A stretch of DNA of 64,000 nt from assembly GCF_001677475.2 (NCBI RefSeq), contig NZ_CP015229.1. One strand, 5' to 3'. This stretch comes from Escherichia coli (GTDB lineage Bacteria > Pseudomonadota > Gammaproteobacteria > Enterobacterales > Enterobacteriaceae). The position numbers and the translations under genes are program-made. Positions 2,657-29,919 of the stretch are shown in pieces; position 1 is the first letter of the stretch; each line of letters begins with the position of its first letter. Below the pieces are notes generated by a model. That model was not told the origin of the DNA, made no database searches, and saw only the letters and a list, made by a program, of their open reading frames with translations.

Positions 2657-3181
2657 ATGGCTTTGACAACCATTTCGCCGCATGATGCACAAGAATTAAT
2701 CGCACGCGGCGCAAAGTTAATCGATATTCGTGATGCTGATGAATATCTTCGTGAACATATTCCTGAAGCAGATCTGGCTCCATTATCCGTGCTCGAAAAG
2801 TCAGGTCTTCCGCCTAAATTACGTCGCGAGCAAATTATCTTCCACTGCCAGGCAGGTAAACGCACCAGTAATAACGCCGATAAATTAGCAGCGATTGCCG
2901 CACCCGCAGAAATCTTTTTACTCGAAGATGGGATTGATGGCTGGAAAAAAGCAGGATTGCCAGTTGCGGTAAATAAATCTCAACCCTTGCCGTTAATGCG
3001 CCAGGTGCAGATCGCCGCAGGTGGTTTAATATTAATCGGCGTTGTACTGGGTTATACCGTAAATAGCGGTTTCTTCTTATTAAGCGGCTTTGTTGGTGCC
3101 GGGTTACTGTTTGCAGGAATTAGCGGTTTTTGTGGGATGGCAAGGTTGTTAGATAAGATGCCTTGGAACCAACGAGCTTGA
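2657..3181 (+). CDS. ygaP: Membrane-anchored rhodanese (thiosulfate sulfurtransferase) YgaP
   Basis: 174-aa ORF; rhodanese active-site region FHCQAGKRT; hydrophobic C-terminal tail. Confidence 0.85.
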
Positions 3182-3227
3182 GAAGCGACGCCGGACGCGC
3201 CATAGCAGCGACATCCGGCCTCAGTAA

Positions 3228-3632
3228 TTAGATCAGGAAATCGTCGAGAGATTTACCTTCTGCCAGCGCCTGAGCGATTGGCTTCGGTGTACGGCCCTGA
3301 CCGGTCCAGGTTTTAGTTTCACCGTTAACATCGGTGAATTTATATTTTGCCGGACGCGGCTGGCGTTTTTTACCAGCGCGTGGGGCGGCCGCGGAGCTAT
3401 TACCCAATAACTCTTCCGGGTTAATTCCGTCAGCTTTCATCAGCTCCAGCCAGGTACTAATTTTTTCCTGGCGCTCTGCCAGTTCACGCTGCTGCTGTTC
3501 TTCTTCTTCACGTCTTTCTTTAGTGACAACCCTGAATTTTTCGAGCATTTCTTCAAGAACGTCAATGGAGAATTCGCGAGCCATCGCACGGAGGGTGCGA
3601 ATGTTATTTAAACTTTGTAACATTACGGACAT
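3228..3632 (-). CDS. stpA: H-NS paralogue StpA
   Basis: 134-aa ORF; recognised H-NS-family sequence including C-terminal [16 protein letters not shown]. Confidence 0.9.
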
Positions 3633-4299
3633 AATAAAGAAAACCTTTTAACGCCAAAACAAAAAAGTATTTCGTCGCGTAGTGTAAGCGATCACTTATT
3701 ATATTTCCACAAAATTTAATCTATTTACAGTCCTGCGCGAGATTATTTCAGCTGTTATTTTCTGAAACTCTCAGAATAATTTCAAGATTATATATTAGCC
3801 ATTTTGATGAGTAATTTAGGTTATTGGTGAACAGAGCGGCGCTCTCTGCTCGCTAATTCCGCAAGCCTGACAACACCAAAGTGAATAAAAATGCAATATA
3901 ACAGAATAAAAGAAAACATCCATCACTGGTGCTTTCTGCTGTTAATGTACATTGTCTGGCATAAAAAATGCTGAAAATGACCCGGTCACGACATACACCG
4001 AATTCTCTACGCTTATAGCGTTACCTCACCCCCAAACTTTCATTAGTGAAATTAAAGGCAAGCTAATATCTAATTGATTTAATTGAAAATAAATCATATC
4101 GGCATGTAAAAATCCACAATGTACAAAAAACGCGCCGTTACGGAATATTTTATCTACAAAAACTGACTAAATAAAAATTTTTCACTAATTGATTAGTCAT
4201 AGCCAGCGATATACGCTATGCGAAAATGCAGATGGCAATGAGATCCACTGCTTTCATCTCCATTAACATCCCATTACGCTTTTATTAAGGAGCATTAGC

Positions 4300-4749
4300 A
4301 TGTTCTCACCGCAGTCACGCTTGCGTCATGCAGTTGCAGATACGTTCGCGATGGTTGTTTACTGTTCTGTCGTGAACATGTGTATTGAAGTTTTCCTCTC
4401 CGGAATGAGCTTCGAACAGTCTTTTTATTCCAGATTGGTAGCGATTCCGGTGAACATCTTAATTGCATGGCCATACGGTATGTACCGCGATCTGTTTATG
4501 CGCGCGGCACGCAAAGTTAGCCCGTCGGGCTGGATAAAAAATCTGGCGGATATCCTGGCTTATGTGACGTTCCAGTCACCGGTGTATGTGGCGATCTTGT
4601 TAGTGGTGGGCGCAGACTGGCATCAGATTATGGCGGCGGTCAGTTCAAACATCGTTGTTTCGATGTTGATGGGGGCGGTTTATGGCTACTTCCTCGATTA
4701 TTGCCGCCGACTGTTTAAAGTCAGCCGTTACCAGCAGGTAAAAGCCTGA
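4300..4749 (+). CDS. alaE: L-alanine exporter AlaE
   Basis: 149-aa hydrophobic ORF after the long AT-rich spacer; synteny. Confidence 0.8.
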
Positions 4750-4785
4750 CTCTTCTTTTCGCGACTGGCATCGCCAGTCGCGTCT

Positions 4786-5130
4786 TTAACTGGCTTCGCC
4801 AAATAAACCATTTAAATAACGTTCAAGCGCAACACGCGAACTAAAGCCATGCGGGATACCGTAATGCTCGTGTCGCTCGCCTGCTAAATAGAGCGGAAAT
4901 TGTTGATAATGATCGCAAGTTTTAATATCGGAAGCGGGTTCAGCCAGTGTCGAACTACGTTCTTTTAATGTTGGATGAATTACCAGTGCGGTACGTCCCA
5001 TTCGCGCTTCGCGATTAACATAGACATAATTTTCCCCACGGCGGTAACCATACGCTTTCTGGGTTACCACATCGACAGTAAAACCGACTTTTTCAAGTAC
5101 GCGCGCCACCTCGTCTGGTCGTAAATACAT
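4786..5130 (-). CDS. ygaC: Uncharacterised protein YgaC
   Basis: 114-aa ORF; synteny. Confidence 0.75.
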
Positions 5131-5269
5131 ATTTGATCCTCGTTATTATCAACCGCGGGCCTACCTTACCTGATTGCGCATTCACAACGCTTTCAGAAAA
5201 GTCCATAAAGCCGCGATGAACCTCAGTTAAGAAAATTATGGTCTACACTGAAAATTACATCGAATTCTA

Positions 5270-5611
5270 ATGGGGGATCATATGTTTAACCGACCGAACC
5301 GCAACGACGTTGATGATGGCGTGCAGGATATCCAGAATGATGTCAATCAATTAGCTGACAGCCTCGAATCTGTATTGAAGTCCTGGGGCAGCGACGCCAA
5401 AGGGGAAGCTGAAGCCGCACGCAGTAAAGCTCAGGCATTGCTGAAAGAAACCAGGGCGCGAATGCATGGTCGTACTCGCGTCCAGCAAGCCGCACGCGAT
5501 GCCGTTGGCTGCGCGGATTCTTTTGTTCGTGAAAGACCCTGGTGTAGCGTGGGTACAGCAGCTGCGGTAGGTATTTTTATCGGCGCACTGTTAAGCATGC
5601 GCAAATCGTAG
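5270..5611 (+). CDS. ygaM: ElaB/YqjD-family membrane-anchored protein YgaM (true start may be the Met at 5282)
   Basis: 113-aa ORF; hydrophilic N-terminus with a C-terminal transmembrane anchor; synteny. Confidence 0.75.
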   Translation: MGDHMFNRPNRNDVDDGVQDIQNDVNQLADSLESVLKSWGSDAKGEAEAARSKAQALLKETRARMHGRTRVQQAARDAVGCADSFVRERPWCSVGTAAAVGIFIGALLSMRKS

Positions 5612-5642
5612 TGCAAAAATGATAATAAATACGCGTCTTTGA

Positions 5643-5672
5643 CCCCGAAGCCTGTCTTCGGGGTTTCTTTTT
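5643..5672 (+). terminator. Rho-independent terminator downstream of ygaM
   Basis: ccccgaag / cttcgggg stem followed by tttcttttt. Confidence 0.6.
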
Positions 5673-5740
5673 GCCTGGTGAATCACAAAAATCCCCCTAC
5701 CCCGTCACGCTCATATCCAGGGTAATTTCGACCACTATTT

Positions 5741-5756
5741 GCTATATATTGTGTGG
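5741..5756 (+). promoter_or_regulatory. NrdR-box-like AT-rich palindrome upstream of nrdH
   Basis: gctatatattgtgtgg partial palindrome about 100 bp upstream of nrdH; consensus quoted from memory only. Confidence 0.3.
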
Positions 5757-5858
5757 TTGAATCTTTTTTCAACTACATCTAGTATCTCTGTATCAACAGA
5801 GAGACAACCCGACGCGTATCATCGCGCCGTATCTTCATTTTAAACGGAAATACGAATC

Positions 5859-6104
5859 ATGCGCATTACTATTTACACTCGTAACGATTGCGTTCAGTGC
5901 CACGCCACCAAACGGGCGATGGAAAACCGGGGCTTTGATTTTGAAATGATTAATGTCGATCGCGTTCCAGAAGCGGCAGAAGCGCTGCGTGCTCAGGGCT
6001 TTCGTCAGTTGCCGGTAGTGATTGCTGGCGATCTTAGCTGGTCTGGTTTCCGTCCGGACATGATTAACCGTCTGCATCCAGCGCCACACGCGGCCAGTGC
6101 ATGA
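5859..6104 (+). CDS. nrdH: Glutaredoxin-like protein NrdH
   Basis: 81-aa ORF with CVQC redox motif; first gene of nrdHIEF. Confidence 0.9.
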
Positions 6105-6511
6105 GCCAGCTCGTCTACTTCTCCAGCAGCTCCGAAAACACGCAGCGTTTTATCGAACGTTTAGGTCTGCCCGCGGTGCGCATCCCGCTCAATGAGCGGG
6201 AACGGATTCAGGTAGACGGGCCTTACATCCTGATCGTGCCCTCTTACGGCGGCGGCGGTACGGCTGGCGCGGTGCCACGACAGGTAATCCGCTTTTTAAA
6301 CGACGAGCACAACCGGGCGTTGCTTCGCGGCGTTATTGCTTCGGGTAATCGCAACTTTGGTGAGGCGTATGGCCGCGCCGGAGATGTGATTGCTCAGAAA
6401 TGCGGCGTGCCGTGGCTGTACCGCTTTGAACTCATGGGTACGCAAAGCGATATCGAAAACGTTCGTAAAGGAGTAACTGAATTTTGGCAACGACAACCGC
6501 AGAATGCCTGA
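6101..6511 (+). CDS. nrdI: Flavodoxin-like protein NrdI
   Basis: 136-aa ORF overlapping the nrdH stop; synteny. Confidence 0.9.
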
Positions 6512-8628
6512 CGCAGGAAACGATGGATTACCACGCGCTGAATGCGATGCTTAACCTCTACGACAGCGCAGGTCGCATTCAGTTCGATAAAGACCGCCAG
6601 GCCGTTGACGCCTTTATTGCGACGCATGTGCGTCCGAACAGTGTGACCTTCGGTAGCCAGCAGCAGCGCCTGAACTGGCTGGTCAACGAAGGTTACTATG
6701 ATGAAAGCGTTCTTAATCGCTACTCTCGCGACTTTGTCATTACGCTGTTTGCCCACGCACACACCAGCGGTTTTCGTTTTCAGACATTCCTCGGAGCATG
6801 GAAGTTTTACACCAGCTATACGTTGAAGACATTCGACGGTAAGCGTTATCTGGAAGATTTTGCCGATCGAGTCACGATGGTGGCGCTGACGCTGGCACAA
6901 GGCGATGAAACACTGGCGACGCAACTGACCGATGAGATGCTGTCAGGACGCTTTCAGCCTGCAACACCGACATTCCTCAACTGTGGTAAGCAGCAGCGCG
7001 GCGAACTGGTTTCCTGTTTTTTGCTGCGTATTGAAGACAATATGGAGTCGATTGGTCGGGCGGTAAATTCCGCACTGCAACTGTCGAAACGCGGCGGCGG
7101 CGTAGCATTTTTGCTGTCGAATCTGCGGGAAGCGGGCGCGCCAATTAAACGTATTGAAAATCAATCTTCTGGCGTAATTCCGGTGATGAAAATGCTGGAA
7201 GACGCATTTTCCTATGCCAACCAACTCGGCGCGCGTCAGGGGGCTGGTGCAGTCTATTTACATGCTCATCATCCCGATATTCTGCGTTTTCTCGACACGA
7301 AACGGGAAAATGCCGACGAAAAAATCCGCATTAAAACACTGTCGCTTGGCGTGGTGATCCCGGATATCACTTTCCATCTGGCAAAAGAGAATGCGCAGAT
7401 GGCGCTGTTTTCGCCTTATGACGTAGAGCGAGTTTATGGCAAGCCGTTTGCCGATGTCGCCATTAGCGAACACTATGACGAACTGGTTGCCGATGAACGC
7501 ATCCGCAAAAAATACCTCAACGCCCGTGATTTCTTCCAGCGACTGGCAGAAATCCAGTTTGAGTCCGGCTATCCCTACATCATGTATGAAGACACGGTAA
7601 ACCGTGCTAACCCTATCGCCGGGCGCATAAATATGAGCAATCTTTGCTCAGAGATTTTGCAGGTTAACAGCGCATCAGAGTATAACGAGAATCTCGACTA
7701 TGCCCGCACAGGCCATGATATTTCCTGCAATTTAGGTTCGTTGAATATTGCGCACACCATGGATTCCCCGGACTTTGCCCGCACGGTAGAGACTGCCGTA
7801 CGCGGTTTAACGGCGGTGTCAGATATGAGTCATATCCGCAGCGTGCCGTCCATCGAAGCCGGAAATGCCGCCTCACACGCCATCGGGCTGGGGCAGATGA
7901 ATTTACACGGTTATCTGGCGCGAGAAGGCATCGCTTATGGTTCGCCGGAAGCACTGGATTTCACCAATCTCTATTTCTATACCATCACCTGGCACGCACT
8001 GCGTACCTCAATGTTGCTGGCACGCGAACGCGGTGAAACCTTCGCCGGGTTCAAACAGTCACGCTATGCCAGTGGTGAATATTTTAGCCAATATCTGCAA
8101 GGGAACTGGCAGCCGAAAACGGCGAAAGTTGGCGAACTGTTTACCCGTAGCGGTATTACGTTACCTACCCGTGAGATGTGGGCGCAGCTGCGCGACGACG
8201 TGATGTGCTACGGCATTTACAACCAGAATCTTCAGGCGGTGCCGCCAACCGGTTCTATCTCTTATATCAACCATGCTACGTCGAGTATTCATCCGATTGT
8301 GGCGAAAGTAGAGATACGCAAAGAGGGCAAAACAGGACGCGTTTACTACCCTGCCCCGTTTATGACTAACGAGAATCTGGCGCTGTATCAGGATGCTTAC
8401 GCAATCGGCGCAGAAAAGATCATCGACACCTACGCGGAAGCGACTCGCCATGTCGATCAGGGTTTGTCGCTGACGCTGTTTTTCCCCGATACCGCCACCA
8501 CTCGCGATATCAACAAAGCGCAGATTTACGCCTGGCGCAAGGGTATCAAAACGCTCTATTACATTCGCCTGCGTCAGATGGCGCTGGAAGGCACTGAAAT
8601 TGAAGGCTGCGTCTCCTGTGCACTTTAA
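6484..8628 (+). CDS. nrdE: Class Ib ribonucleotide reductase alpha subunit
   Basis: 714-aa ORF; RNR large-subunit features including a C-terminal CxxC pair (EGCVSCAL). Confidence 0.9.
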
Positions 8629-13267: not shown

Positions 13268-13352
13268 ATTCGGGCGGATAAGGCGTTTTTGCCTCATCCG
13301 CCGTTCTGTGCACAATGCCTGATGCGACGCTGGCGCGTCTTATCATGCCTAC
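13268..13352. repeat. REP/BIME-type palindromic repeats downstream of proX
   Basis: Two palindromic units incl. gcctgatgcgacgctggcgcgtcttatcatgcctaca. Confidence 0.6.
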
Positions 13353-17760: not shown

Positions 17761-19299
17761 ATGCAACAGCAAAAACCGCTGGAAGGCGCGCAACTGGTCA
17801 TTATGACGATTGCGCTGTCACTGGCGACATTCATGCAGGTGCTGGACTCCACCATTGCTAACGTGGCGATCCCCACTATCGCCGGGAATCTGGGCTCATC
17901 GCTCAGCCAGGGAACGTGGGTAATCACTTCTTTCGGGGTGGCGAATGCCATCTCGATCCCGCTTACCGGCTGGCTGGCAAAGCGCGTCGGGGAAGTGAAA
18001 CTGTTCCTCTGGTCAACCATCGCCTTTGCTATTGCGTCGTGGGCGTGTGGTGTCTCCAGCAGCCTGAATATGCTGATCTTCTTCCGCGTGATTCAGGGGA
18101 TTGTCGCCGGGCCGTTGATCCCGCTTTCGCAAAGTCTATTGCTGAATAACTACCCGCCAGCCAAACGCTCGATCGCGCTGGCACTGTGGTCGATGACGGT
18201 GATTGTCGCGCCAATTTGCGGCCCAATCCTCGGCGGGTATATCAGTGACAATTACCACTGGGGCTGGATATTCTTCATCAACGTACCGATTGGCGTGGCG
18301 GTGGTGTTGATGACACTGCAAACCCTGCGCGGACGCGAAACCCGCACCGAACGGCGGCGGATTGATGCCGTGGGGCTGGCACTGCTGGTTATTGGTATCG
18401 GCAGCCTACAGATTATGCTCGACCGCGGTAAAGAGCTGGACTGGTTTTCATCACAGGAAATTATCATCCTTACCGTGGTGGCAGTGGTGGCTATCTGCTT
18501 CCTGATTGTCTGGGAGCTGACCGACGATAACCCGATAGTCGATCTGTCGTTGTTTAAGTCGCGCAACTTCACCATCGGCTGTTTGTGTATCAGCCTCGCG
18601 TATATGCTCTACTTCGGCGCTATTGTTCTGCTGCCGCAGTTGTTGCAGGAGGTCTACGGTTACACGGCAACGTGGGCAGGTCTGGCCTCTGCGCCGGTAG
18701 GAATTATTCCGGTGATCCTGTCGCCGATTATCGGCCGCTTCGCGCATAAACTGGATATGCGGCGGCTGGTAACCTTCAGCTTTATTATGTATGCCGTCTG
18801 CTTCTACTGGCGTGCCTATACCTTTGAACCGGGTATGGATTTTGGCGCGTCGGCCTGGCCGCAGTTTATCCAGGGGTTTGCGGTGGCCTGCTTCTTTATG
18901 CCGCTGACCACCATTACGCTGTCTGGTTTGCCACCGGAACGACTGGCGGCAGCATCGAGCCTCTCCAACTTTACGCGAACGCTGGCGGGGTCTATCGGCA
19001 CGTCCATCACCACCACCATGTGGACCAACCGCGAGTCGATGCACCATGCGCAGTTGACTGAGTCGGTAAACCCGTTCAACCCGAATGCCCAGGCGATGTA
19101 CAGTCAACTGGAAGGGCTTGGGATGACGCAACAGCAGGCATCAGGCTGGATTGCCCAGCAGATCACCAATCAGGGGCTGATTATTTCCGCCAATGAGATC
19201 TTCTGGATGTCAGCCGGGATATTCCTCGTCCTGCTGGGGCTGGTGTGGTTTGCTAAACCGCCATTTGGCGCAGGTGGCGGCGGAGGCGGTGCGCACTAA
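17761..19299 (+). CDS. emrB: MFS multidrug efflux pump EmrB
   Basis: ORF 17752..19299; recognised start MQQQKPLEGAQL; Gly-rich C-terminal tail. Confidence 0.9.
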   Translation: MQQQKPLEGAQLVIMTIALSLATFMQVLDSTIANVAIPTIAGNLGSSLSQGTWVITSFGVANAISIPLTGWLAKRVGEVKLFLWSTIAFAIASWACGVSSSLNMLIFFRVIQGIVAGPLIPLSQSLLLNNYPPAKRSIALALWSMTVIVAPICGPILGGYISDNYHWGWIFFINVPIGVAVVLMTLQTLRGRETRTERRRIDAVGLALLVIGIGSLQIMLDRGKELDWFSSQEIIILTVVAVVAICFLIVWELTDDNPIVDLSLFKSRNFTIGCLCISLAYMLYFGAIVLLPQLLQEVYGYTATWAGLASAPVGIIPVILSPIIGRFAHKLDMRRLVTFSFIMYAVCFYWRAYTFEPGMDFGASAWPQFIQGFAVACFFMPLTTITLSGLPPERLAAASSLSNFTRTLAGSIGTSITTTMWTNRESMHHAQLTESVNPFNPNAQAMYSQLEGLGMTQQQASGWIAQQITNQGLIISANEIFWMSAGIFLVLLGLVWFAKPPFGAGGGGGGAH

Positions 19300-19309
19300 G
19301 GTTGTCAAA

Positions 19310-19331
19310 GGGAGCTGCGGCTCCCTTTTTA
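19310..19331 (+). terminator. Rho-independent terminator downstream of emrB
   Basis: gggagc-tgcg-gctccc stem followed by ttttt, directly after the emrB stop. Confidence 0.6.
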
Positions 19332-19556
19332 TTTGCTCATTCTGCAAACGGTTGTTTTATCCACTCATTCGGTGTATCTTTTCGCCGCCCCAAACTCTTC
19401 CATTCACCATTAACCGGTTCTGAGCATTCGCTCAGGTTGTTAATTCTCTTTTTCTTTCGCCCTCGCTTTCGCGGGTGATACTCACATTTTTCTTTTAACC
19501 CCATAACTCGCACCCTCGCGGGCGTACATTTATTACACACAAAATAATGGATTATT

Positions 19557-20264
19557 ATGAATACCCAACGAAAATACGGGAGAACCTGGCATTACCCTTT
19601 CTCCCCAGGCACCACCAGCGATGACCGTATTAACACCGATTACTGGCAGGATTTACAGGCCATCACGCAATTGGTGCACACAGAAAAACTCGACGGTGAA
19701 AATAACTGCCTTAACCGCTACGGCGTGTTTGCCCGTTCCCATGCCGCGCCTACGCAGTCGGCATGGACCTATAAAATTCGCCAACGCTGGCAACTGCTGA
19801 AAAACGATCTCGGCGATCTGGAGTTGTTTGGTGAAAATCTTTATGCCGTCCATTCGATTGAATATCGCGCCCTGGAGCAGGATTTTTATCTGTTTGCCGT
19901 TCGCTGCCAGGATATGTGGCTGAGCTGGGAAGAGGTGCAGTTTTACGCCGCTCTGTTTGATTTCCCCTGCGTTCCCGAAATCTCCGGCCCGCAGCCGGGG
20001 AATGATGAAAAAAGCTGGCAACGTGATTTTCTGGCGCTGACCAATGCGCGCGGCGCGTTCGATCCCTGGGATACGCAAACCGGGCAACCCTGTACGCTGG
20101 AAGGCATTGTCAGCCGAAATCGTGACGCGTTTTCCGTCGCTGACTTTTCGCATAACGTCTTCAAGTATGTGCGCAAAAATCATGTCAAAACCACCGTGCA
20201 CTGGAAACGACACTGGCAACGGGCGCGGATGGCCCATGAGTTCGCTTATGGAGAACAGTCATGA
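19557..20264 (+). CDS. Minimal ATP-dependent polynucleotide ligase (lysine nucleotidyltransferase family, RNA-ligase-like)
   Basis: 235-aa ORF; motif I K44-L-D-G47, motif III-like F91-G-E-N, motif IV E182-G-I-V, motif V K203-Y-V-R-K207 in canonical order. Confidence 0.7.
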
Positions 20265-21373
20265 TTTGGCAGCTTACCGACGACAAACGCTGGTCGACGC
20301 TACGCCAGCGTTTCAGTTGGGTTGAGGAGATGCATCACACGCCACAAGACCCGGAGCATCATGGTGAAGGTGACGTCGGCGTGCATACGGAAATGGTGCT
20401 TAACGCCCTCGTTACTCAGCCAGAATTCCAGCAACTCCCCGCTCAACAGCAGGAAGTTTTATGGGCGGCGGCGTTATTGCATGATGTTGAAAAGCGCAGC
20501 ACTACCGTGCAGGAAAACGGACGTATTCAGTCTCCAGGCCATGCTCGTCGGGGCGAACTGACGGCCCGACAAATTTTATGGCGCGATATCCCAACGCCGT
20601 TCGTGCTACGCGAGCAAATTGTTGCGCTGGTGCGTCTGCATGGGTTACCGCTATGGTTACTGGAACGTCCGGAACCGGAGCGTTTGCTGCTCACGGCTGC
20701 AATGCGCATCGACACGCGTCTGCTCGCTTTGCTTGCTCGTGCCGACCTGCTTGGTCGCCAAAGCCCGGATCAGCAATCAATGCTGGAACGCATCGATCTG
20801 TTCGAGCTGTTTTGCCATGAGCAACAATGCTGGGGAAAAGTGCGCCCGTTCGTTTCTGATTCCGCACGCTGGCACTACCTGACTCATGAGCAAAGTTCTC
20901 CTGATTTTGTTCCCTGGGGGGCTGAACCTTTTGAGGTTATTTTGCTGTGTGGCTTACCGGGTATGGGCAAAGATCGCTATATCAGTGAACAGTGCCAGGG
21001 AATGGACGTTATCAGCCTTGATGATATGCGGCGGCGAATCAATGCCAGCCCGGACGACAAAACCGCCACCGGGCGTATTGTGCAACAGGCAAAAGAAGAG
21101 GCGCGCGTTTTTTTACGCCAGAAAAAGCCGTTCATCTGGAATGCAACGAACATTACCCGCCAGCTGCGTAGCCAGCTCATCAGCTTGTTTACGGCCTACG
21201 GTGCAAGGGTAAAAATTATCTATCTGGAAGTGCCGTGGGCACAATGGAAGCAGCAAAATGCCAGGCGTGTGTATGCAGTTCCTGAAGTGGTCGTAATGCG
21301 GATGGCCTCAAGGCTGGAAGTTCCTCAACCTGATGAAGCACATAGCGTGGAGTATCGGGTGATTGAAAGGTAA
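20261..21373 (+). CDS. HD-domain phosphoesterase fused to a T4-Pnk-like 5'-OH polynucleotide kinase (HD-Pnk end-healing enzyme)
   Basis: 370-aa ORF; N-terminal HD signature ([11 protein letters not shown] ... LLHDVEK); C-terminal P-loop GLPGMGKD then [24 protein letters not shown] and [16 protein letters not shown], matching T4 Pnk as recalled; start overlaps the ligase stop (ATGA). Confidence 0.7.
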
Positions 21374-21379
21374 AAAAAC

Positions 21380-21416
21380 CGGGCGGTGCTGTCACCTGCC
21401 CGGCTTCTTTTGTTCC
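21380..21416. terminator. Probable bidirectional terminator between the HD-Pnk gene and convergent luxS
   Basis: A-run, ccgggcgg...cctgcccgg imperfect hairpin, then cttcttttgtt, in the 48-bp gap between two convergent stops. Confidence 0.5.
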
Positions 21417-21421
21417 ACTGA

Positions 21422-21937
21422 CTAAATGTGCAGTTCTTGCAACTTCTCTTTCGGCAGCGCCAGCTCTTCGTTGCTGTTGATGCGTACGTCACGTTCCAGA
21501 ATGCTACGCGCAATATCCTGCGCTTCCTGCAACGAGTGCATCTGGTAAGTGCCACACTGGTAGACGTTCAGTTCTGGGATCTGATTCTGATCCTGCACTT
21601 TCAGCACGTCTTCCATTGCCGCTTTCCAGGCATCAGCAACACGCTGCTCATCTGGCGTACCAATCAGACTCATATAAAAACCGGTGCGGCAGCCCATTGG
21701 CGAGATATCGATAATCTCTACACCATTACCGTTAAGATGGTTACGCATAAAACCAGCAAACAGGTGCTCCAGGGTATGGATCCCTCTTTCTGGCATCACT
21801 TCTTTGTTCGGCACGCAGAAGCGCAGATCGAACACGGTGATTGCGTCGCCATGCGGGGTGTTCATTGTTTTCGCCACCCGAACTGCAGGCGCTTCCATCC
21901 GGGTATGATCGACTGTGAAGCTATCTAACAACGGCAT
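21422..21937 (-). CDS. luxS: S-ribosylhomocysteine lyase LuxS
   Basis: 171-aa ORF; recognised LuxS sequence incl. metal-binding HTLEHL. Confidence 0.93.
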
Positions 21938-22005: not shown

Positions 22006-22079
22006 GAAAGACGCGCATTTGTTATCATCATCCCTGAATTCAGAGATGAAATTTTGGCCACTCACGAGTGGCCTTTTTC
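22006..22079 (+). ncRNA. micA: MicA (SraD) small regulatory RNA
   Basis: Recognised sequence gaaagacgcgcatttgttatcatcatccctgaattcagagatgaaattttggccactcacgagtggcctttttc with terminal hairpin; between luxS and gshA on the opposite strand. Confidence 0.75.
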
Positions 22080-24707: not shown

Positions 24708-24917
24708 GGTCTTCTCGCAAGTCGAAAAATATGACGCTACTTTAGCGTAATTGCTTGATTTTGTCGCTGATGGCGAAGGAGAAGAAAATTCAGGAAATAG
24801 ATAAAGTAGTTATTTAGAAATGAGATATTTTTGAAGGAAATTTGTGGGAGAAGATGGTGCCTGCGGTTAGTACTGCTACCTCTTCGATACCTTCATTGCT
24901 GAAGATTACGGAGAATA

Positions 24918-24994
24918 TGGTGCATCCGGGAGGATTCGAACCTCCGACCGCTCGGTTCGTAGCCGAGTACTCTATCCAGCTGAGCTACGGATGC
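24918..24994 (-). tRNA. argQ: tRNA-Arg (ACG), copy 1
   Basis: Reverse complement gives a 77-nt tRNA ending in CCA with recognised tRNA-Arg sequence; symbol assigned by position. Confidence 0.9.
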
Positions 24995-25096
24995 ATCGGG
25001 AAAACTTATTTTACTGCTGATATTGATACCGCTACTAAAGCCATATCAAATAAGAAAATCCATCTTAACCATCATCACTGATGATTACGGAGAATA

Positions 25097-25173
25097 TGGT
25101 GCATCCGGGAGGATTCGAACCTCCGACCGCTCGGTTCGTAGCCGAGTACTCTATCCAGCTGAGCTACGGATGC
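25097..25173 (-). tRNA. argZ: tRNA-Arg (ACG), copy 2
   Basis: Identical 77-nt repeat. Confidence 0.9.
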
Positions 25174-25235
25174 ATCGGGAAATTTATTTTACTGCTGATA
25201 TTGATACCGCTACTAAAGCCATATCAAGTAAGAGA

Positions 25236-25312
25236 TGGTGCATCCGGGAGGATTCGAACCTCCGACCGCTCGGTTCGTAGCCGAGTACTCTATCCAGCTG
25301 AGCTACGGATGC
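25236..25312 (-). tRNA. argY: tRNA-Arg (ACG), copy 3
   Basis: Identical 77-nt repeat. Confidence 0.9.
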
Positions 25313-25374
25313 ATCGGGAAACTTACTTTACTGCAGATTTTTTGATACCGCTACTAAAGCCGTATCAAGTAAGA

Positions 25375-25395
25375 GATGGTGCATCCGGGAGGATT
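25375..25395 (-). pseudogene. Truncated tRNA-Arg fragment (3'-terminal ~21 nt only)
   Basis: gatggtgcatccgggaggatt matches the 3' end of the tRNA-Arg repeat, then diverges into spacer-like sequence. Confidence 0.6.
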
Positions 25396-25511
25396 ACTCG
25401 CCTTGCGGCTCGCCCTTCGGGCCGTTGCTAAAGCAACGTTATCCTTCCTGGTGCTTGCGGCTAGTACCGCCACCTCTTCCACATCTTCATCGCTGAAGAT
25501 TACGGATAATA

Positions 25512-25588
25512 TGGTGCATCCGGGAGGATTCGAACCTCCGACCGCTCGGTTCGTAGCCGAGTACTCTATCCAGCTGAGCTACGGATGC
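25512..25588 (-). tRNA. argV: tRNA-Arg (ACG), copy 4
   Basis: Identical 77-nt repeat. Confidence 0.9.
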
Positions 25589-25591
25589 AAA

Positions 25592-25684
25592 TGGCGGTGA
25601 GGCGGGGATTCGAACCCCGGATGCAGCTTTTGACCGCATACTCCCTTAGCAGGGGAGCGCCTTCAGCCTCTCGGCCACCTCACC
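25592..25684 (-). tRNA. serV: tRNA-Ser (GCU)
   Basis: 93-nt long-variable-arm tRNA; reverse complement matches the tRNA-Ser(GCU) sequence as recalled. Confidence 0.88.
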
Positions 25685-25998
25685 ACACGCCTCTTACGAG
25701 TGCTTCGAAGAACTTGTTTATCGCTCATCGTCGCTGCGTGGCGCACATATTACTTTCTGAGACTTATAAGTCAAACAATTTTTCCCACACTTTTATCGTT
25801 TGCACACTTCACGCTCAATTAGTCTGTAAAAACGTCAAAAAGAGTGTTTTATCAACAGAAAAACGGAGGTCTGTCAGATAGCAGTAATGCAAAAAAATGG
25901 AGACTTAAGTTGAATGAACGGGAGTAAAGCGAAAAGACAATGGAGTGAAGAAGAAATTTGAGGGTGCGTCTCACCGATAAAGATGAGACGCGGAAAGA

Positions 25999-29677: not shown

Positions 29678-29837
29678 GGCATATCCTTACAACTTAAAAA
29701 AGCAAAAGGGTCGCAGATGCGACCCAGGTTTTGCTGATAAACAGATTTAATAGTCAATGAGTGTGCAGAATGTTCCCGCAGGCCCAATTCGTTAGAAGAT
29801 CGAGGTGAGAGTAATTTTTCACGCCAGTGCTGACCTG

Positions 29838-29879
29838 TTCCCCTCACCCTCACCCTCTCCCCAAAGGGGCGAGGGGACC
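29838..29879. repeat. GC-rich imperfect palindromic element in the recA-recX spacer
   Basis: ttcccctcaccctcaccctctccccaaaggggcgaggggacc. Confidence 0.5.
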
Positions 29880-29919
29880 GTCCGTGCACACATTATCTAT
29901 TATCATCAATAACGAACGA

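What the first reader, a model, noticed from the sequence alone, without database searches (positions are those of the whole stretch)
19332..21416. Two-gene ligase + HD-Pnk cassette between emrB and luxS: candidate nucleic-acid end-healing/sealing (RNA repair) system absent from K-12
emrB and convergent luxS are separated by about 2.1 kb here. In the K-12 gene order as I recall it they are adjacent, with consecutive locus numbers and no gene between. The gap holds two overlapping (ATGA) co-directional genes. The first carries the ordered motifs of a covalent lysine-nucleotidyltransferase ligase. The second fuses an HD phosphohydrolase domain to a P-loop domain that aligns by eye with the T4 polynucleotide kinase 5'-kinase module. 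Those three activities are the full set needed to repair a break with 2',3'-cyclic-phosphate and 5'-OH ends, as left by anticodon nucleases, colicin-type tRNases and many toxin RNases. HD-Pnk enzymes paired with a ligase have been characterised biochemically in other bacteria, as far as I recall, but the biological role and this chromosomal context appear unexplored. A repair or counter-defence role against RNA-cleaving toxins is an inference.
Basis: partly seen in the sequence, partly recalled or inferred. Interest (0 to 1): 0.88.

Follow-up and report, generated by a model that had tools for sequence, protein, structure and literature searches.

The report
Ligase plus HD-kinase RNA-repair gene pair
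Between emrB and luxS this E. coli strain carries two intact, overlapping genes, a small RNA-type ligase and a fused HD-phosphoesterase/polynucleotide-kinase, which belong to a nucleic-acid "heal and seal" cassette already described in other bacteria; its natural substrate is still unknown and K-12 has lost it.

Summary
The window matches K-12 base for base up to emrB's stop codon and again from 5 bp before luxS's stop. Between these points it holds 2116 bp where K-12 has 57 bp.

The insert carries a 235-aa ligase (Pfam RNA_ligase 4e-28, all nucleotidyltransferase motifs invariant). An ATGA overlap joins it to a 370-aa protein with an HD domain and a P-loop kinase domain. The kinase is structurally closest to Clostridium thermocellum Pnkp kinase and T4 Pnk.

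This is the ligase/HD-Pnk cassette that Shuman's laboratory described in Runella slithyformis, with the same gene order and the same ORF overlap.

- It is not a mobile island. It sits downstream of emrB in at least seven Enterobacteriaceae genera.
- 999 of 5426 complete E. coli genomes carry it, including ST131, NC101, ATCC 25922 and W.
- It is under strong purifying selection (dN/dS 0.03-0.11).
- Elsewhere it lies beside RtcB, PrfH, Tpt1 and RlaP genes, and a huge phage carries it. This favours RNA over DNA as the substrate.

Verdict: a new, uncharacterised member of a known kind. Three things remain unexplained: the ligase's substrate, a conserved 220-nt upstream leader, and an invariant GKD P-loop.

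The parts
19307..19328 (+). emrB intrinsic terminator hairpin (AAAGGGAGCTGCGGCTCCCTTT followed by a T run). It marks the upstream edge of the cassette-specific DNA.
   Evidence: Terminator scan. The hairpin is kept in other genera through compensatory changes, GGGAGC/GCTCCC versus GGGATC/GATCCC.
19336..19556 (+). Conserved non-coding region upstream of the ligase. Its elements are:
- candidate sigma-70 promoter TTGTTT (19352-19357), 17-nt spacer, TATCTT (19375-19380);
- box CTTCCATTCAC (19397-19407);
- hairpin CTGAGC-loop-GCTCAG (19419-19436);
- GC-rich boxes;
- AATAATGGATTAT (19543-19555), which contains the Shine-Dalgarno GGA.
UCCAUU (19399-19404) is complementary to AAUGGA (19546-19551).
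   Evidence: The blocks are invariant or nearly so in 13 Enterobacteriaceae loci from at least 7 genera, although the proteins are only 71-77% identical. The hairpin loop varies in length while the stem does not. There is no Rfam match and no covariation. The MFE fold pairs the box with the SD region. Promoter and anti-SD readings are inference.
19557..20264 (+). LIG: a 235-aa stand-alone ATP-dependent polynucleotide (RNA-type) ligase consisting of the nucleotidyltransferase domain only.
- Motif I: K44-L-D-G-E-N.
- Motif III: FGE93N.
- Motif IIIa: F113..R116.
- Motif IV: E182-G-I-V-S-R187.
- Motif V: K203-Y-V-R-K207.
- An invariant N-terminal [19 protein letters not shown] segment.
   Evidence: Pfam PF09414 4.4e-28. 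Invariant columns in a 26-sequence alignment. AF2 model pLDDT 79.5. Best folds are Naegleria Rnl, T4 Rnl2, archaeal Rnl3 and fungal Trl1-LIG, all at 20% identity or less. dN/dS 0.03-0.07.
20261..21373 (+). HD-Pnk: a 370-aa bifunctional end-healing enzyme.
- N-terminal HD phosphoesterase domain (about residues 1-210): H34, H42, H74-D75, H94, H127 and D162 are invariant.
- C-terminal P-loop 5'-OH polynucleotide kinase domain (about residues 224-366): G-L-P-G-M-G-K237-D238, D254, R257, N294 and R336 are invariant.
Its ATG overlaps the LIG stop codon (ATGA).
21372..21414 (.). Bidirectional terminator shared by HD-Pnk and the convergent luxS: an A run, the hairpin CCGGGCGGTG-CTGT-CACCTGCCCGG, then a T-rich run. 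It marks the downstream edge of the cassette-specific DNA; homology with K-12 resumes at 21417.
   Evidence: Read directly from the sequence. K-12 breakpoints. The terminator scan did not call it, probably because of the bulged stem.

Best explanation
The region is a self-contained two-gene operon for healing and sealing broken nucleic acid, most probably RNA. It belongs to the same family as the Runella slithyformis LIG/HD-Pnk cassette.

Proposed mechanism:
1. An RNase that cuts by transesterification (an anticodon nuclease, a colicin-type tRNase or rRNase, a contact-dependent or toxin-antitoxin RNase) leaves 2',3'-cyclic-phosphate (or 3'-phosphate) and 5'-OH ends.
2. The HD domain of ORF-B removes the 2',3'-cyclic or 3'/2' phosphate, using a transition metal, to give 3'-OH.
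3. The P-loop domain of ORF-B phosphorylates the 5'-OH.
4. ORF-A, charged with AMP on Lys44, adenylylates the 5'-phosphate and seals the break.

ORF-A is a bare nucleotidyltransferase domain. Its Runella homologue self-adenylylates but does not seal ordinary substrates. I therefore infer that the ligase needs either HD-Pnk as a partner (supported by the translationally coupled ATGA overlap and adjacency in 80 of 80 loci) or a specific RNA structure such as a tRNA anticodon loop or ribosome-embedded rRNA.

The pair has its own promoter and leader downstream of the emrB terminator. It is an old chromosomal gene pair of Escherichia and Enterobacteriaceae that was deleted in the lineage leading to K-12.

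Shown here: gene structure, domain families, catalytic motifs, fold, conservation, distribution and neighbourhoods. Shown by others for homologues: kinase and phosphoesterase activities and ligase adenylylation. Inferred: RNA as the in-vivo substrate, complex formation and the counter-toxin role.
For: Anatomy and families:
- ORFs and ATGA overlap.
- Pfam RNA_ligase 4e-28; AAA_33 3.5e-30 plus HD.
- Invariant ligase motifs I-V; invariant HD and kinase catalytic residues.

Fold:
- The ligase matches RNA ligases (NgrRnl, Rnl2, Rnl3, Trl1-LIG).

[quoted passage not shown] HD-Pnk there is a proven 2',3'-phosphoesterase/5'-kinase, and the ligase forms E-AMP (PMC6097658).

Pairing: LIG lies directly upstream of HD-Pnk in 80 of 80 genome loci from two phyla.

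RNA-repair neighbours:
- RtcB in 26 of 80 loci.
- RtcB-PrfH-LIG-HD-Pnk in 14 of 80 loci (Serratia, Bacteroides).
- Tpt1/KptA in 3 loci.
- RlaP pairs in Cytophagia-type loci.
RtcB2-PrfH repairs colicin-E3-cut ribosomes (PMC9304027, PMC9223846). RlaP adds nucleotides to damaged RNA 3' ends (PMC12776372).

A huge phage carries an HNH-LIG fusion followed by HD-Pnk.

Selection: dN/dS 0.03-0.11.

Ancestry: the same emrB-linked position in Escherichia, Salmonella, Klebsiella, Kosakonia, Phytobacter and others.
Against: - No activity has been measured for the E. coli proteins.
- The one homologous ligase studied did not join any 3'-OH/5'-PO4 RNA or DNA substrate tried (PMC6097658), so 'sealing' is unproven for the whole family.
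- Runella HD-Pnk is described as a DNA/RNA end-healing enzyme. The title of Schmier & Shuman 2018 (seen only as a reference) says that Deinococcus HD-Pnk abets resistance to ionizing radiation and mitomycin C, which points to DNA.
- In the window the cassette stands alone, with no RtcB, PrfH, RlaP or Tpt1 next to it.
- About 8% of sampled E. coli carriers, including ATCC 25922, have a frameshifted ligase, so the ligase is dispensable in some lineages.
- The P-loop has Asp in place of the usual Ser/Thr.
- I could not retrieve the Runella protein sequences to measure identity directly.
Confidence: 0.65

Rival explanations
1. The cassette repairs DNA, not RNA. HD-Pnk converts 3'-phosphate/5'-OH DNA breaks (oxidative or radiation damage, or nuclease products) to 3'-OH/5'-phosphate, and the ligase seals or processes DNA ends.
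For: [quoted passage not shown] The title of Schmier & Shuman 2018 states that D. radiodurans HD-Pnk abets resistance to ionizing radiation and mitomycin C. The kinase fold also matches mammalian PNKP, a DNA repair enzyme.
Against: All recurrent neighbours are RNA-repair or ribosome-rescue genes: RtcB, PrfH, Tpt1, RlaP. No DNA-repair gene recurs. The ligase falls in Pfam RNA_ligase and its nearest folds are RNA ligases, with DNA ligases much weaker. No LexA box or SOS-type signal is evident in the conserved leader on reading the sequence; I ran no formal search. The Runella ligase did not seal DNA substrates either (PMC6097658).
Confidence: 0.15
2. The ligase is not a conventional sealing enzyme. 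One option is that it needs a 2'-phosphate at the 3' end, as fungal and plant tRNA ligases do, and leaves a 2'-PO4 junction that Tpt1/KptA removes. The other is that it only transfers AMP (RNA 5'-adenylylation or capping, or a signalling role), with HD-Pnk preparing the ends.
For: The Runella ligase makes E-AMP but does not join 3'-OH/5'-PO4 ends, and the authors link the cluster to Tpt1 (PMC6097658). Tpt1/KptA homologues sit beside LIG/HD-Pnk in L076, L077 and L084. Fungal Trl1-LIG is among the fold matches. The protein lacks any extra nick-sensing domain (235 aa).
Against: From my recollection of the Munir & Shuman 2017 abstract, which I could not read here, Runella HD-Pnk removes 2'-phosphates as well as 3' and cyclic phosphates. 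That would destroy the required 2'-PO4 end. Tpt1 is adjacent in only 3 of 80 loci, and RtcB adjacency is far more common. K-12 keeps kptA without the cassette. All sealing motifs (IV, V) are intact and invariant.
Confidence: 0.12
3. The pair is an anti-phage defence or toxin module rather than a repair system.
For: Patchy presence and absence among strains. Homologues occur in conflict-rich contexts and in phages.
Against: No PADLOC family matches either protein. There is no nuclease or toxin domain. The chromosomal position is fixed across genera with no island features. Phage carriage fits counter-defence (repair) better than defence.
Confidence: 0.04
4. The pair is a decaying, functionless remnant in E. 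coli.
For: It is lost in about 82% of complete genomes. A 10-bp frameshifting deletion in the ligase is present in ATCC 25922-type alleles, and there is a partial deletion in strain Ecol_542.
Against: Both ORFs are intact here. dN/dS is 0.03-0.11 at dS 0.03-0.22. All catalytic residues are invariant. The promoter/leader is conserved across genera.
Confidence: 0.04

Closest known systems
Runella slithyformis LIG / HD-Pnk cluster (Munir & Shuman 2017; described in PMC6097658) and Deinococcus radiodurans HD-Pnk (Schmier & Shuman 2018)
   Same: The two-gene order is the same, with the ligase ORF's 3' end overlapping the HD-Pnk ORF's 5' end. The domain architecture is the same: N-terminal HD and C-terminal P-loop Pnk. 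The ligase is small and stand-alone. Orthologues from the same order as Runella (Dyadobacter, Chryseolinea, Adhaeribacter) are 54-58% (HD-Pnk) and 52-65% (ligase) identical to the E. coli proteins.
   Different: In Runella the pair is preceded by Tpt1 and an MTase-HIT gene. Here it stands alone between emrB and luxS, with an Enterobacteriaceae-specific conserved leader. No biochemistry exists for the E. coli proteins. Direct identity to the Runella proteins could not be measured.
Bacteriophage T4 Pnkp + Rnl1 (tRNA anticodon-loop repair against PrrC)
   Different: The phosphoesterase here is an HD domain, not a HAD/DxDxT phosphatase. The ligase is a 235-aa bare nucleotidyltransferase domain unrelated to Rnl1 beyond the superfamily. 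It is chromosomal in a host, not phage-borne, although one huge phage has it.
Bacterial Pnkp-Hen1 RNA repair system (Clostridium thermocellum; Pnkp1/Rnl/Hen1 of Capnocytophaga)
   Different: There is no Hen1 2'-O-methyltransferase. The phosphatase there is calcineurin-type, not HD. In Pnkp the ligase is fused; here it is a separate gene.
RtcB-type repair (RtcBA; RtcB2-PrfH ribosome rescue and repair)
   Same: The purpose is the same: rejoining RNase-cut RNA. The genes are physically linked, as RtcB(-PrfH)-LIG-HD-Pnk, in Serratia and Bacteroides.
   Different: The chemistry is opposite. RtcB joins 3'-P/2',3'>P to 5'-OH directly with GTP. This cassette must first convert the ends to 3'-OH/5'-P. 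There is no RtcB or PrfH in this locus.
E. coli CCA-adding enzyme HD domain
   Different: There is no Pol-beta nucleotidyltransferase head domain. The match is far below the family cut-off (22 versus 451 bits).

Membership tests
HD-Pnk bifunctional end-healing enzymes (Runella/Deinococcus type) | N-terminal HD metal-dependent phosphoesterase domain with the H...HD...H...D ligand set | tested here: met
   H34, H42, H74-D75, H94, H127 and D162 are invariant in 26 homologues. Pfam HD is weak on this protein (0.021) but PF01966 is precomputed on many homologues. NCBIfam HDIG 0.0014 and the Cca HD region 4.5e-5. The N-domain model is all-helical with pLDDT above 90.
HD-Pnk bifunctional end-healing enzymes (Runella/Deinococcus type) | C-terminal P-loop 5'-OH polynucleotide kinase domain of the T4 Pnk / bacterial Pnkp clade, with a general-base Asp and phosphate-binding Arg residues | tested here: met
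HD-Pnk bifunctional end-healing enzymes (Runella/Deinococcus type) | Encoded immediately downstream of, and overlapping, a putative ATP-dependent ligase ORF | tested here: met
   ATGA overlap at 20261-20264. LIG lies directly upstream in 80 of 80 loci. This matches the description in PMC6097658.
HD-Pnk bifunctional end-healing enzymes (Runella/Deinococcus type) | Sequence orthology to the biochemically characterised Runella or Deinococcus protein | not testable with these tools
   The two primary papers are not held. Runella did not appear among the 80 loci kept by the genome scan or among named hits of a Dyadobacter-seeded search. Orthology is inferred from 54-58% identity to other Cytophagales members.
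HD-Pnk bifunctional end-healing enzymes (Runella/Deinococcus type) | Kinase and 2',3'-phosphoesterase activities | not testable with these tools
   Needs biochemistry.
ATP-dependent polynucleotide ligases (covalent lysyl-AMP nucleotidyltransferases), RNA-ligase branch PF09414 | Motif I KxDGxN with the adenylylated lysine, then motifs III, IIIa, IV and V in order | tested here: met
   K44-L-D-G-E-N49, E93, F113/R116, E182-G-x-V-x-R187 and K203..R206-K207 are all invariant or nearly so. Pfam PF09414 is matched end to end (model 2-171 of 171, 4.4e-28).
ATP-dependent polynucleotide ligases (covalent lysyl-AMP nucleotidyltransferases), RNA-ligase branch PF09414 | Nucleotidyltransferase fold | tested here: met
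   AF2 model pLDDT 79.5. Foldseek probability 1.0 to NgrRnl, T4 Rnl2, Rnl3 and Trl1-LIG, but TM only 0.4-0.5 and identity 20% or less.
Named RNA ligase families Rnl1-Rnl5 / Trl1-LIG | A family-specific extra domain (C-terminal in Rnl1, Rnl2, Rnl3 and Trl1; N-terminal in Rnl5) flanking the nucleotidyltransferase domain | tested here: not met
   The protein is 235 aa, the nucleotidyltransferase domain alone with a short basic tail. It has no PDB sequence relative and no NCBIfam family. It is therefore not filed under any of these families. It is a separate clade with an invariant N-terminal [19 protein letters not shown] signature.
Pnkp-Hen1 repair system | Hen1 methyltransferase partner and a calcineurin-type phosphatase domain in Pnkp | tested here: not met
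   Only two genes lie between emrB and luxS. There is no metallophosphoesterase or methyltransferase domain.
Known anti-phage defence systems (PADLOC-DB) | Match to a defence-system protein model | tested here: not met
   No PADLOC family for either protein.
Genomic island / mobile element | Integrase or transposase, flanking repeats, tRNA attachment site, plasmid or phage copies in the species | tested here: not met
   No flanking repeats. No extra ORFs. GC is 0.49-0.57, like the neighbouring DNA. All 999 E. coli copies are chromosomal and single. The same site is occupied in other genera.

The most novel reading that the evidence does not exclude
The bare ligase is a structure-specific or partner-dependent RNA ligase of a new family. 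Together with HD-Pnk it repairs translation-machinery RNA that RtcB cannot handle. Candidate substrates are rRNA or tRNA breaks whose cyclic phosphate has already been opened or removed, or breaks with a 2'-phosphate that hand a substrate to the orphan E. coli enzyme KptA.

On this reading the conserved 220-nt leader is a damage-responsive switch that controls translation of the ligase through the anti-SD/SD pairing. ExPEC lineages such as ST131 would then own a second, RtcB-independent ribosome/tRNA repair pathway that protects them from colicins and contact-dependent RNase toxins in the gut.
Probability: 0.15. Interest if true: 0.7.

Novelty: new member of a known kind. Interest (0 to 1): 0.4.

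Why it matters
The LIG/HD-Pnk cassette is widespread. There are at least 4800 HD-Pnk clusters at 90% identity, spread over several phyla and huge phages. Its biology is nevertheless a blank: the ligase's substrate is unknown and no phenotype links the pair to RNA damage.

Finding an intact, selected copy at a fixed site in genetically tractable E. coli offers a direct route to the answer, because K-12 is a natural null background. Carriers include ST131, NC101 and W. ATCC 25922 has a natural frameshift in the ligase. Complementation and deletion can be tested under colicin E3/E5/D, CDI toxins, phage anticodon nucleases and ribosome-targeting stress.

The work could also explain two things:
- why many bacteria place this pair next to RtcB-PrfH;
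- whether E. coli KptA has a physiological substrate.

As it stands this is an annotation-level refinement of a known system, not a new kind of system.

Tried and rejected
- **Mobile island.** Rejected. There are no repeats, integrase or tRNA site. The window is collinear with K-12 from gabP to ascB apart from this indel. The same position is occupied in other genera.
- **Defence system.** No PADLOC hit.
- **Known RNA in the 257-bp spacer.** Rfam found nothing at gathering threshold or at E of 10 or less, apart from noise. RNAalifold gave no covariation, so the leader structure stays a hypothesis.
- **Small ORF in the spacer.** The 67-aa minus-strand ORF at 19337-19540 is rejected, because the inter-genus alignment has many 1-2-nt indels.
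- **PDB sequence search with the ligase.** It returned only mollusc hemocyanins, through a WxxWQxxQ-like stretch, summed over repeats with per-domain E above 0.2. I treat these as spurious.
- **Retrieving the prototype sequences.** Attempts to read Munir & Shuman 2017, Schmier & Shuman 2018 and Burroughs & Aravind 2016 failed because they are not held. The RlaP preprint's supplement is not held either. The genome scan kept only the best 80 of 276 species and Runella was not among them. A Dyadobacter-seeded protein search did not return a named Runella protein.
- **Leader motifs outside Enterobacteriaceae.** A search upstream of LIG or rtcB in Serratia, Xenorhabdus, Providencia, Proteus, Budviciaceae and Bacteroidota found none.
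- **True plasmid carriage.** Only megaplasmids, chromids or mislabelled chromosomes matched.
- **Literature on this E. coli locus.** A search for emrB + luxS + RNA ligase found none.
Full report
**Observation**

ORF-A is at 19557-20264 (+, 235 aa) and ORF-B at 20261-21373 (+, 370 aa). They overlap by ATGA. emrA and emrB lie upstream, with emrB stopping at 19299. luxS (21422-21937, minus strand), MicA (22006-22077; Rfam 83.9 bits) and gshA lie downstream.

In K-12 MG1655, emrB (b2686) and luxS (b2687) are 63 bp apart with no gene between them. BLAST against K-12 shows 98.3-98.8% identity, so the window is E. coli. Identity stops at window 19300 and restarts at 21417, so 2116 bp here replace 57 bp in K-12. 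Across the roughly 50 kb compared (gabP to ascB) this is the only large difference.

GC content of the insert (0.49-0.57) resembles its surroundings. No direct or inverted repeats flank it and it has no integrase or transposase.

**What the two proteins are**

ORF-A:
- It matches Pfam RNA_ligase (PF09414) over the whole model at 4.4e-28.
- In an alignment of 26 homologues spanning Enterobacterales and Bacteroidota (60-87% identical), every motif of the covalent lysine nucleotidyltransferases is invariant or nearly so. These are K44-L-D-G-E-N (I), FGE93N (III), F113/R116 (IIIa), E182-G-I-V-S-R187 (IV) and K203-Y-V-R-K207 (V).
- An N-terminal [19 protein letters not shown] segment is also invariant and is peculiar to this clade.
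- The AlphaFold model (pLDDT 79.5) matches RNA ligases best: Naegleria Rnl, T4 Rnl2, archaeal Rnl3 and fungal Trl1-LIG. TM is only 0.4-0.5 and identity 20% or less. DNA ligases score lower.
- It has no close relative in the PDB by sequence (the hemocyanin hits are spurious) and no NCBIfam model.
- At 235 aa it is a nucleotidyltransferase domain with no accessory domain. It therefore does not belong to Rnl1-5 or Trl1-LIG.

ORF-B:
- Its C-terminal P-loop domain matches AAA_33 at 3.5e-30 (residues 226-355).
- The catalytic Asp (D254, aligned with the ISSD of CthPnkp) and the Arg residues are invariant.
- Its N-terminal domain of about 210 residues is all-helical (pLDDT above 90) and carries invariant H34, H42, H74-D75, H94, H127 and D162.
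- The HD assignment is weak on this sequence alone (Pfam 0.021; NCBIfam HDIG 0.0014 and the CCA-enzyme HD region 4.5e-5). PF01966 is, however, recorded on many close homologues.
- One oddity: the Walker A motif is G-L-P-G-M-G-K-D in all 26 aligned sequences and in the phage copy, with Asp where Ser/Thr is usual.

**Relation to what is known**

The introduction of PMC6097658 describes a Runella slithyformis cluster. [quoted passage not shown] That is exactly the anatomy found here.

The same passage reports that the Runella ligase forms ligase-AMP but ligates none of the 3'-OH/5'-PO4 DNA or RNA substrates tested, and that the natural substrates are unknown.

I could not obtain the Runella or Deinococcus sequences, so orthology is inferred. 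Members from the same bacterial order (Dyadobacter, Chryseolinea, Adhaeribacter, Fulvivirgaceae) are 54-58% identical for HD-Pnk and 52-65% for the ligase. My recollection of the 2017 abstract is that homologues occur in 11 phyla, often with a ligase. This agrees with what I found but comes from memory, not from a tool.

**Distribution and history**

- A genome scan with two strict peptide patterns found 276 species. In all 80 loci kept, the ligase lies directly upstream of HD-Pnk.
- In the eight Enterobacteriaceae loci (Escherichia x2, Phytobacter, UBA3516, Klebsiella spallanzanii, Kosakonia, Enterobacter sp., Superficieibacter) the pair follows emrR-emrA-emrB. In five of them luxS comes next. 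Strain ENNIH3 also has the pair directly after emrRAB. A Salmonella contig has no emrB on it but carries the same upstream leader.
- Escherichia albertii and cryptic Escherichia lineages have the pair too.
- 999 of 5426 complete E. coli genomes carry it. Every copy is single and chromosomal. Carriers include ST131, JJ1887, NC101, clone D i14, ATCC 25922 and W. Most of these are phylogroup B2 by my own knowledge.

The simplest history is an old chromosomal gene pair that was deleted in the ancestors of K-12 and most A/B1/E strains. A recent gain is less likely.

Between E. coli alleles dN/dS is 0.03-0.07 for the ligase and 0.06-0.11 for HD-Pnk. dS is 0.03-0.22 in the cassette and 0.04-0.08 in luxS, and the cassette value is the higher of the two in most comparisons, so these are old, selected alleles.

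There is some decay:
- ATCC 25922-type alleles have a 10-bp deletion (ligase nt 349-358) that PGAP annotates as a frameshift. About 5 of 60 evenly sampled carriers have this shorter span.
- One strain has a partial deletion.

**Why RNA rather than DNA**

In the window the pair stands alone. Elsewhere its recurrent neighbours are all RNA-repair genes:
- RtcB is adjacent in 26 of 80 loci.
- The order RtcB-PrfH-LIG-HD-Pnk occurs in 14 of 80 loci, in both Serratia and Bacteroides. The PrfH and RtcB family assignments come from NCBIfam TIGR03072 and TIGR03073.
- A Tpt1/KptA homologue is adjacent in three loci. One is a five-gene Dysgonomonas cluster, RtcB-PrfH-Tpt1-LIG-HD-Pnk (L077).
- Pairs of RlaP genes follow the cassette in Fulvivirgaceae, Parachryseolinea and Flammeovirgaceae.

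RtcB2-PrfH rescues and repairs colicin-E3-cut ribosomes (PMC9304027, PMC9223846). RlaP adds one or two nucleotides to damaged RNA 3' ends (PMC12776372).

A 462-kb uncultured phage carries an HNH-ligase fusion followed directly by HD-Pnk. These are 39% and 36% identical to the window proteins and share the same N-terminal ligase signature and GKD P-loop. Ligase-only homologues occur in other jumbo phages. This fits the phage RNA-repair theme reviewed in PMC7824862.

Evidence for DNA repair comes only from the broad in-vitro specificity of the prototype and the Deinococcus phenotype named in a paper title.

**Mechanism proposed**

1. HD-Pnk heals the ends. The HD domain converts 2',3'>P, 3'-P or 2'-P to OH, and the P-loop domain converts 5'-OH to 5'-P.
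2. The ligase, adenylylated on K44, seals the break.

The ligase is a bare catalytic domain and its Runella homologue is stuck after step 1. I therefore infer that sealing needs HD-Pnk as a partner, or a specific RNA architecture. The invariant adjacency and the translational coupling are consistent with a complex. By analogy and from my own knowledge, the isolated nucleotidyltransferase domain of T4 Rnl2 also cannot perform overall nick sealing without its C-terminal domain.

The steps 'RNA in vivo', 'complex' and 'counter-toxin role' are inferences.

**The upstream spacer**

The 257 bp between emrB and the ligase are not filler.

- First comes the emrB terminator (19307-19328), which is kept in other genera through compensatory changes.
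- Several blocks follow that are invariant across at least 7 genera, whereas the proteins are only 71-77% identical:
  - GGTTGTTTTATC and GGTGTATCTTT, which read as a TTGTTT-N17-TATCTT promoter at 19352-19380;
  - CTTCCATTCAC;
  - a CTGAGC/GCTCAG hairpin whose loop varies in length and sequence while the stem does not (19419-19436);
  - GC-rich boxes;
  - AATAATGGATTAT at the ribosome-binding site.
- UCCAUU (19399-19404) is complementary to AAUGGA (19546-19551), and the MFE fold pairs them.

Against a structured RNA: there is no covariation, the fold z-score is only -1.9 and no Rfam family matches. The blocks are absent upstream of the cassette outside Enterobacteriaceae. I record this region as a probable promoter plus regulatory leader of unknown logic.

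**Verdict**

It is a new, uncharacterised E. coli member of a published kind of system. PGAP annotates it generically, and no NCBIfam or PADLOC model covers it.

Its value is practical. It puts an enigmatic, widespread repair cassette into a tractable organism that offers natural null and frameshift backgrounds. I score interest at 0.4. The more novel reading, a partner- or structure-dependent ligase giving a second ribosome/tRNA repair route, possibly feeding KptA and controlled by the leader, gets a probability of about 0.15.

Noticed in passing
window 19336-19556: The spacer upstream of the ligase has sequence blocks invariant across at least 7 Enterobacteriaceae genera. They comprise a candidate promoter (TTGTTT-N17-TATCTT), a hairpin with an invariant stem and variable loop (19419-19436), and a box (UCCAUU, 19399-19404) complementary to the Shine-Dalgarno region (AAUGGA, 19546-19551). 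No Rfam family matches, there is no covariation, and the blocks are absent outside Enterobacteriaceae.
   Followed up: partly
window 20957-20980 (ORF-B residues 233-240): The kinase Walker A motif is GLPGMGKD. Asp replaces the usual Ser/Thr after the lysine in all 26 aligned homologues and in the phage copy (GLPGSGKD). This is an unusual, family-wide P-loop variant whose consequence for Mg/NTP binding is unknown.
   Followed up: partly
L092 1501-2198 (E. coli ATCC 25922 / 'FDA strain Seattle 1946'): The ligase gene has a 10-bp deletion (nt 349-358 of the window gene) and is annotated as frameshifted, while HD-Pnk is intact. About 5 of 60 evenly sampled carrier genomes (clone D i14, an O18:H1 strain and others) have the same shorter span. 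ATCC 25922 is the strain used for RtcB2-PrfH work, so it is a natural ligase-null.
   Followed up: partly
window 19557-21373 versus 21422-21937: In most comparisons, synonymous divergence between E. coli alleles of the cassette (dS 0.03-0.22) is higher than in the adjacent luxS (0.04-0.08). No complete genome has an allele closer than 98.0% to the window's. This suggests old allelic lineages or recombination at this locus.
   Followed up: no
L095 5584-7787 (uncultured huge phage LR756500.1): A 364-aa protein fuses an N-terminal HNH-like Cys/His region to the same ligase clade. HD-Pnk follows it directly, so the cassette also travels in a 462-kb phage.
   Followed up: partly
L077 about 2800-7100 (Dysgonomonas sp. 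ZJ279): A five-gene co-oriented cluster, RtcB-PrfH-Tpt1/KptA-LIG-HD-Pnk, combines both ligation chemistries, a ribosome-rescue factor and a 2'-phosphotransferase.
   Followed up: partly
window 29725-29916: The recX-recA spacer is about 175 bp longer than in K-12. The extra DNA contains a CCCTCACCCTCACCCTCTCCCCAAAGGGGCGAGGGGA palindromic, BoxC-like repeat element.
   Followed up: no
window 13272-13349 and 24860-25690: Rfam calls a naRNA4 (REP-derived nucleoid-associated RNA) copy at 13272-13349. The argQZYV-serV tRNA array is present, with spacer lengths different from K-12.
   Followed up: no
ORF-A residues about 78-166: phmmer against the PDB returns only mollusc hemocyanin functional units, with a summed E of 3e-9 over repeats but each domain E above 0.2, through a Y..HS.EY...F.....W..W.E.Q-like stretch. 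I judge this spurious, but it could mislead automated annotation.
   Followed up: partly
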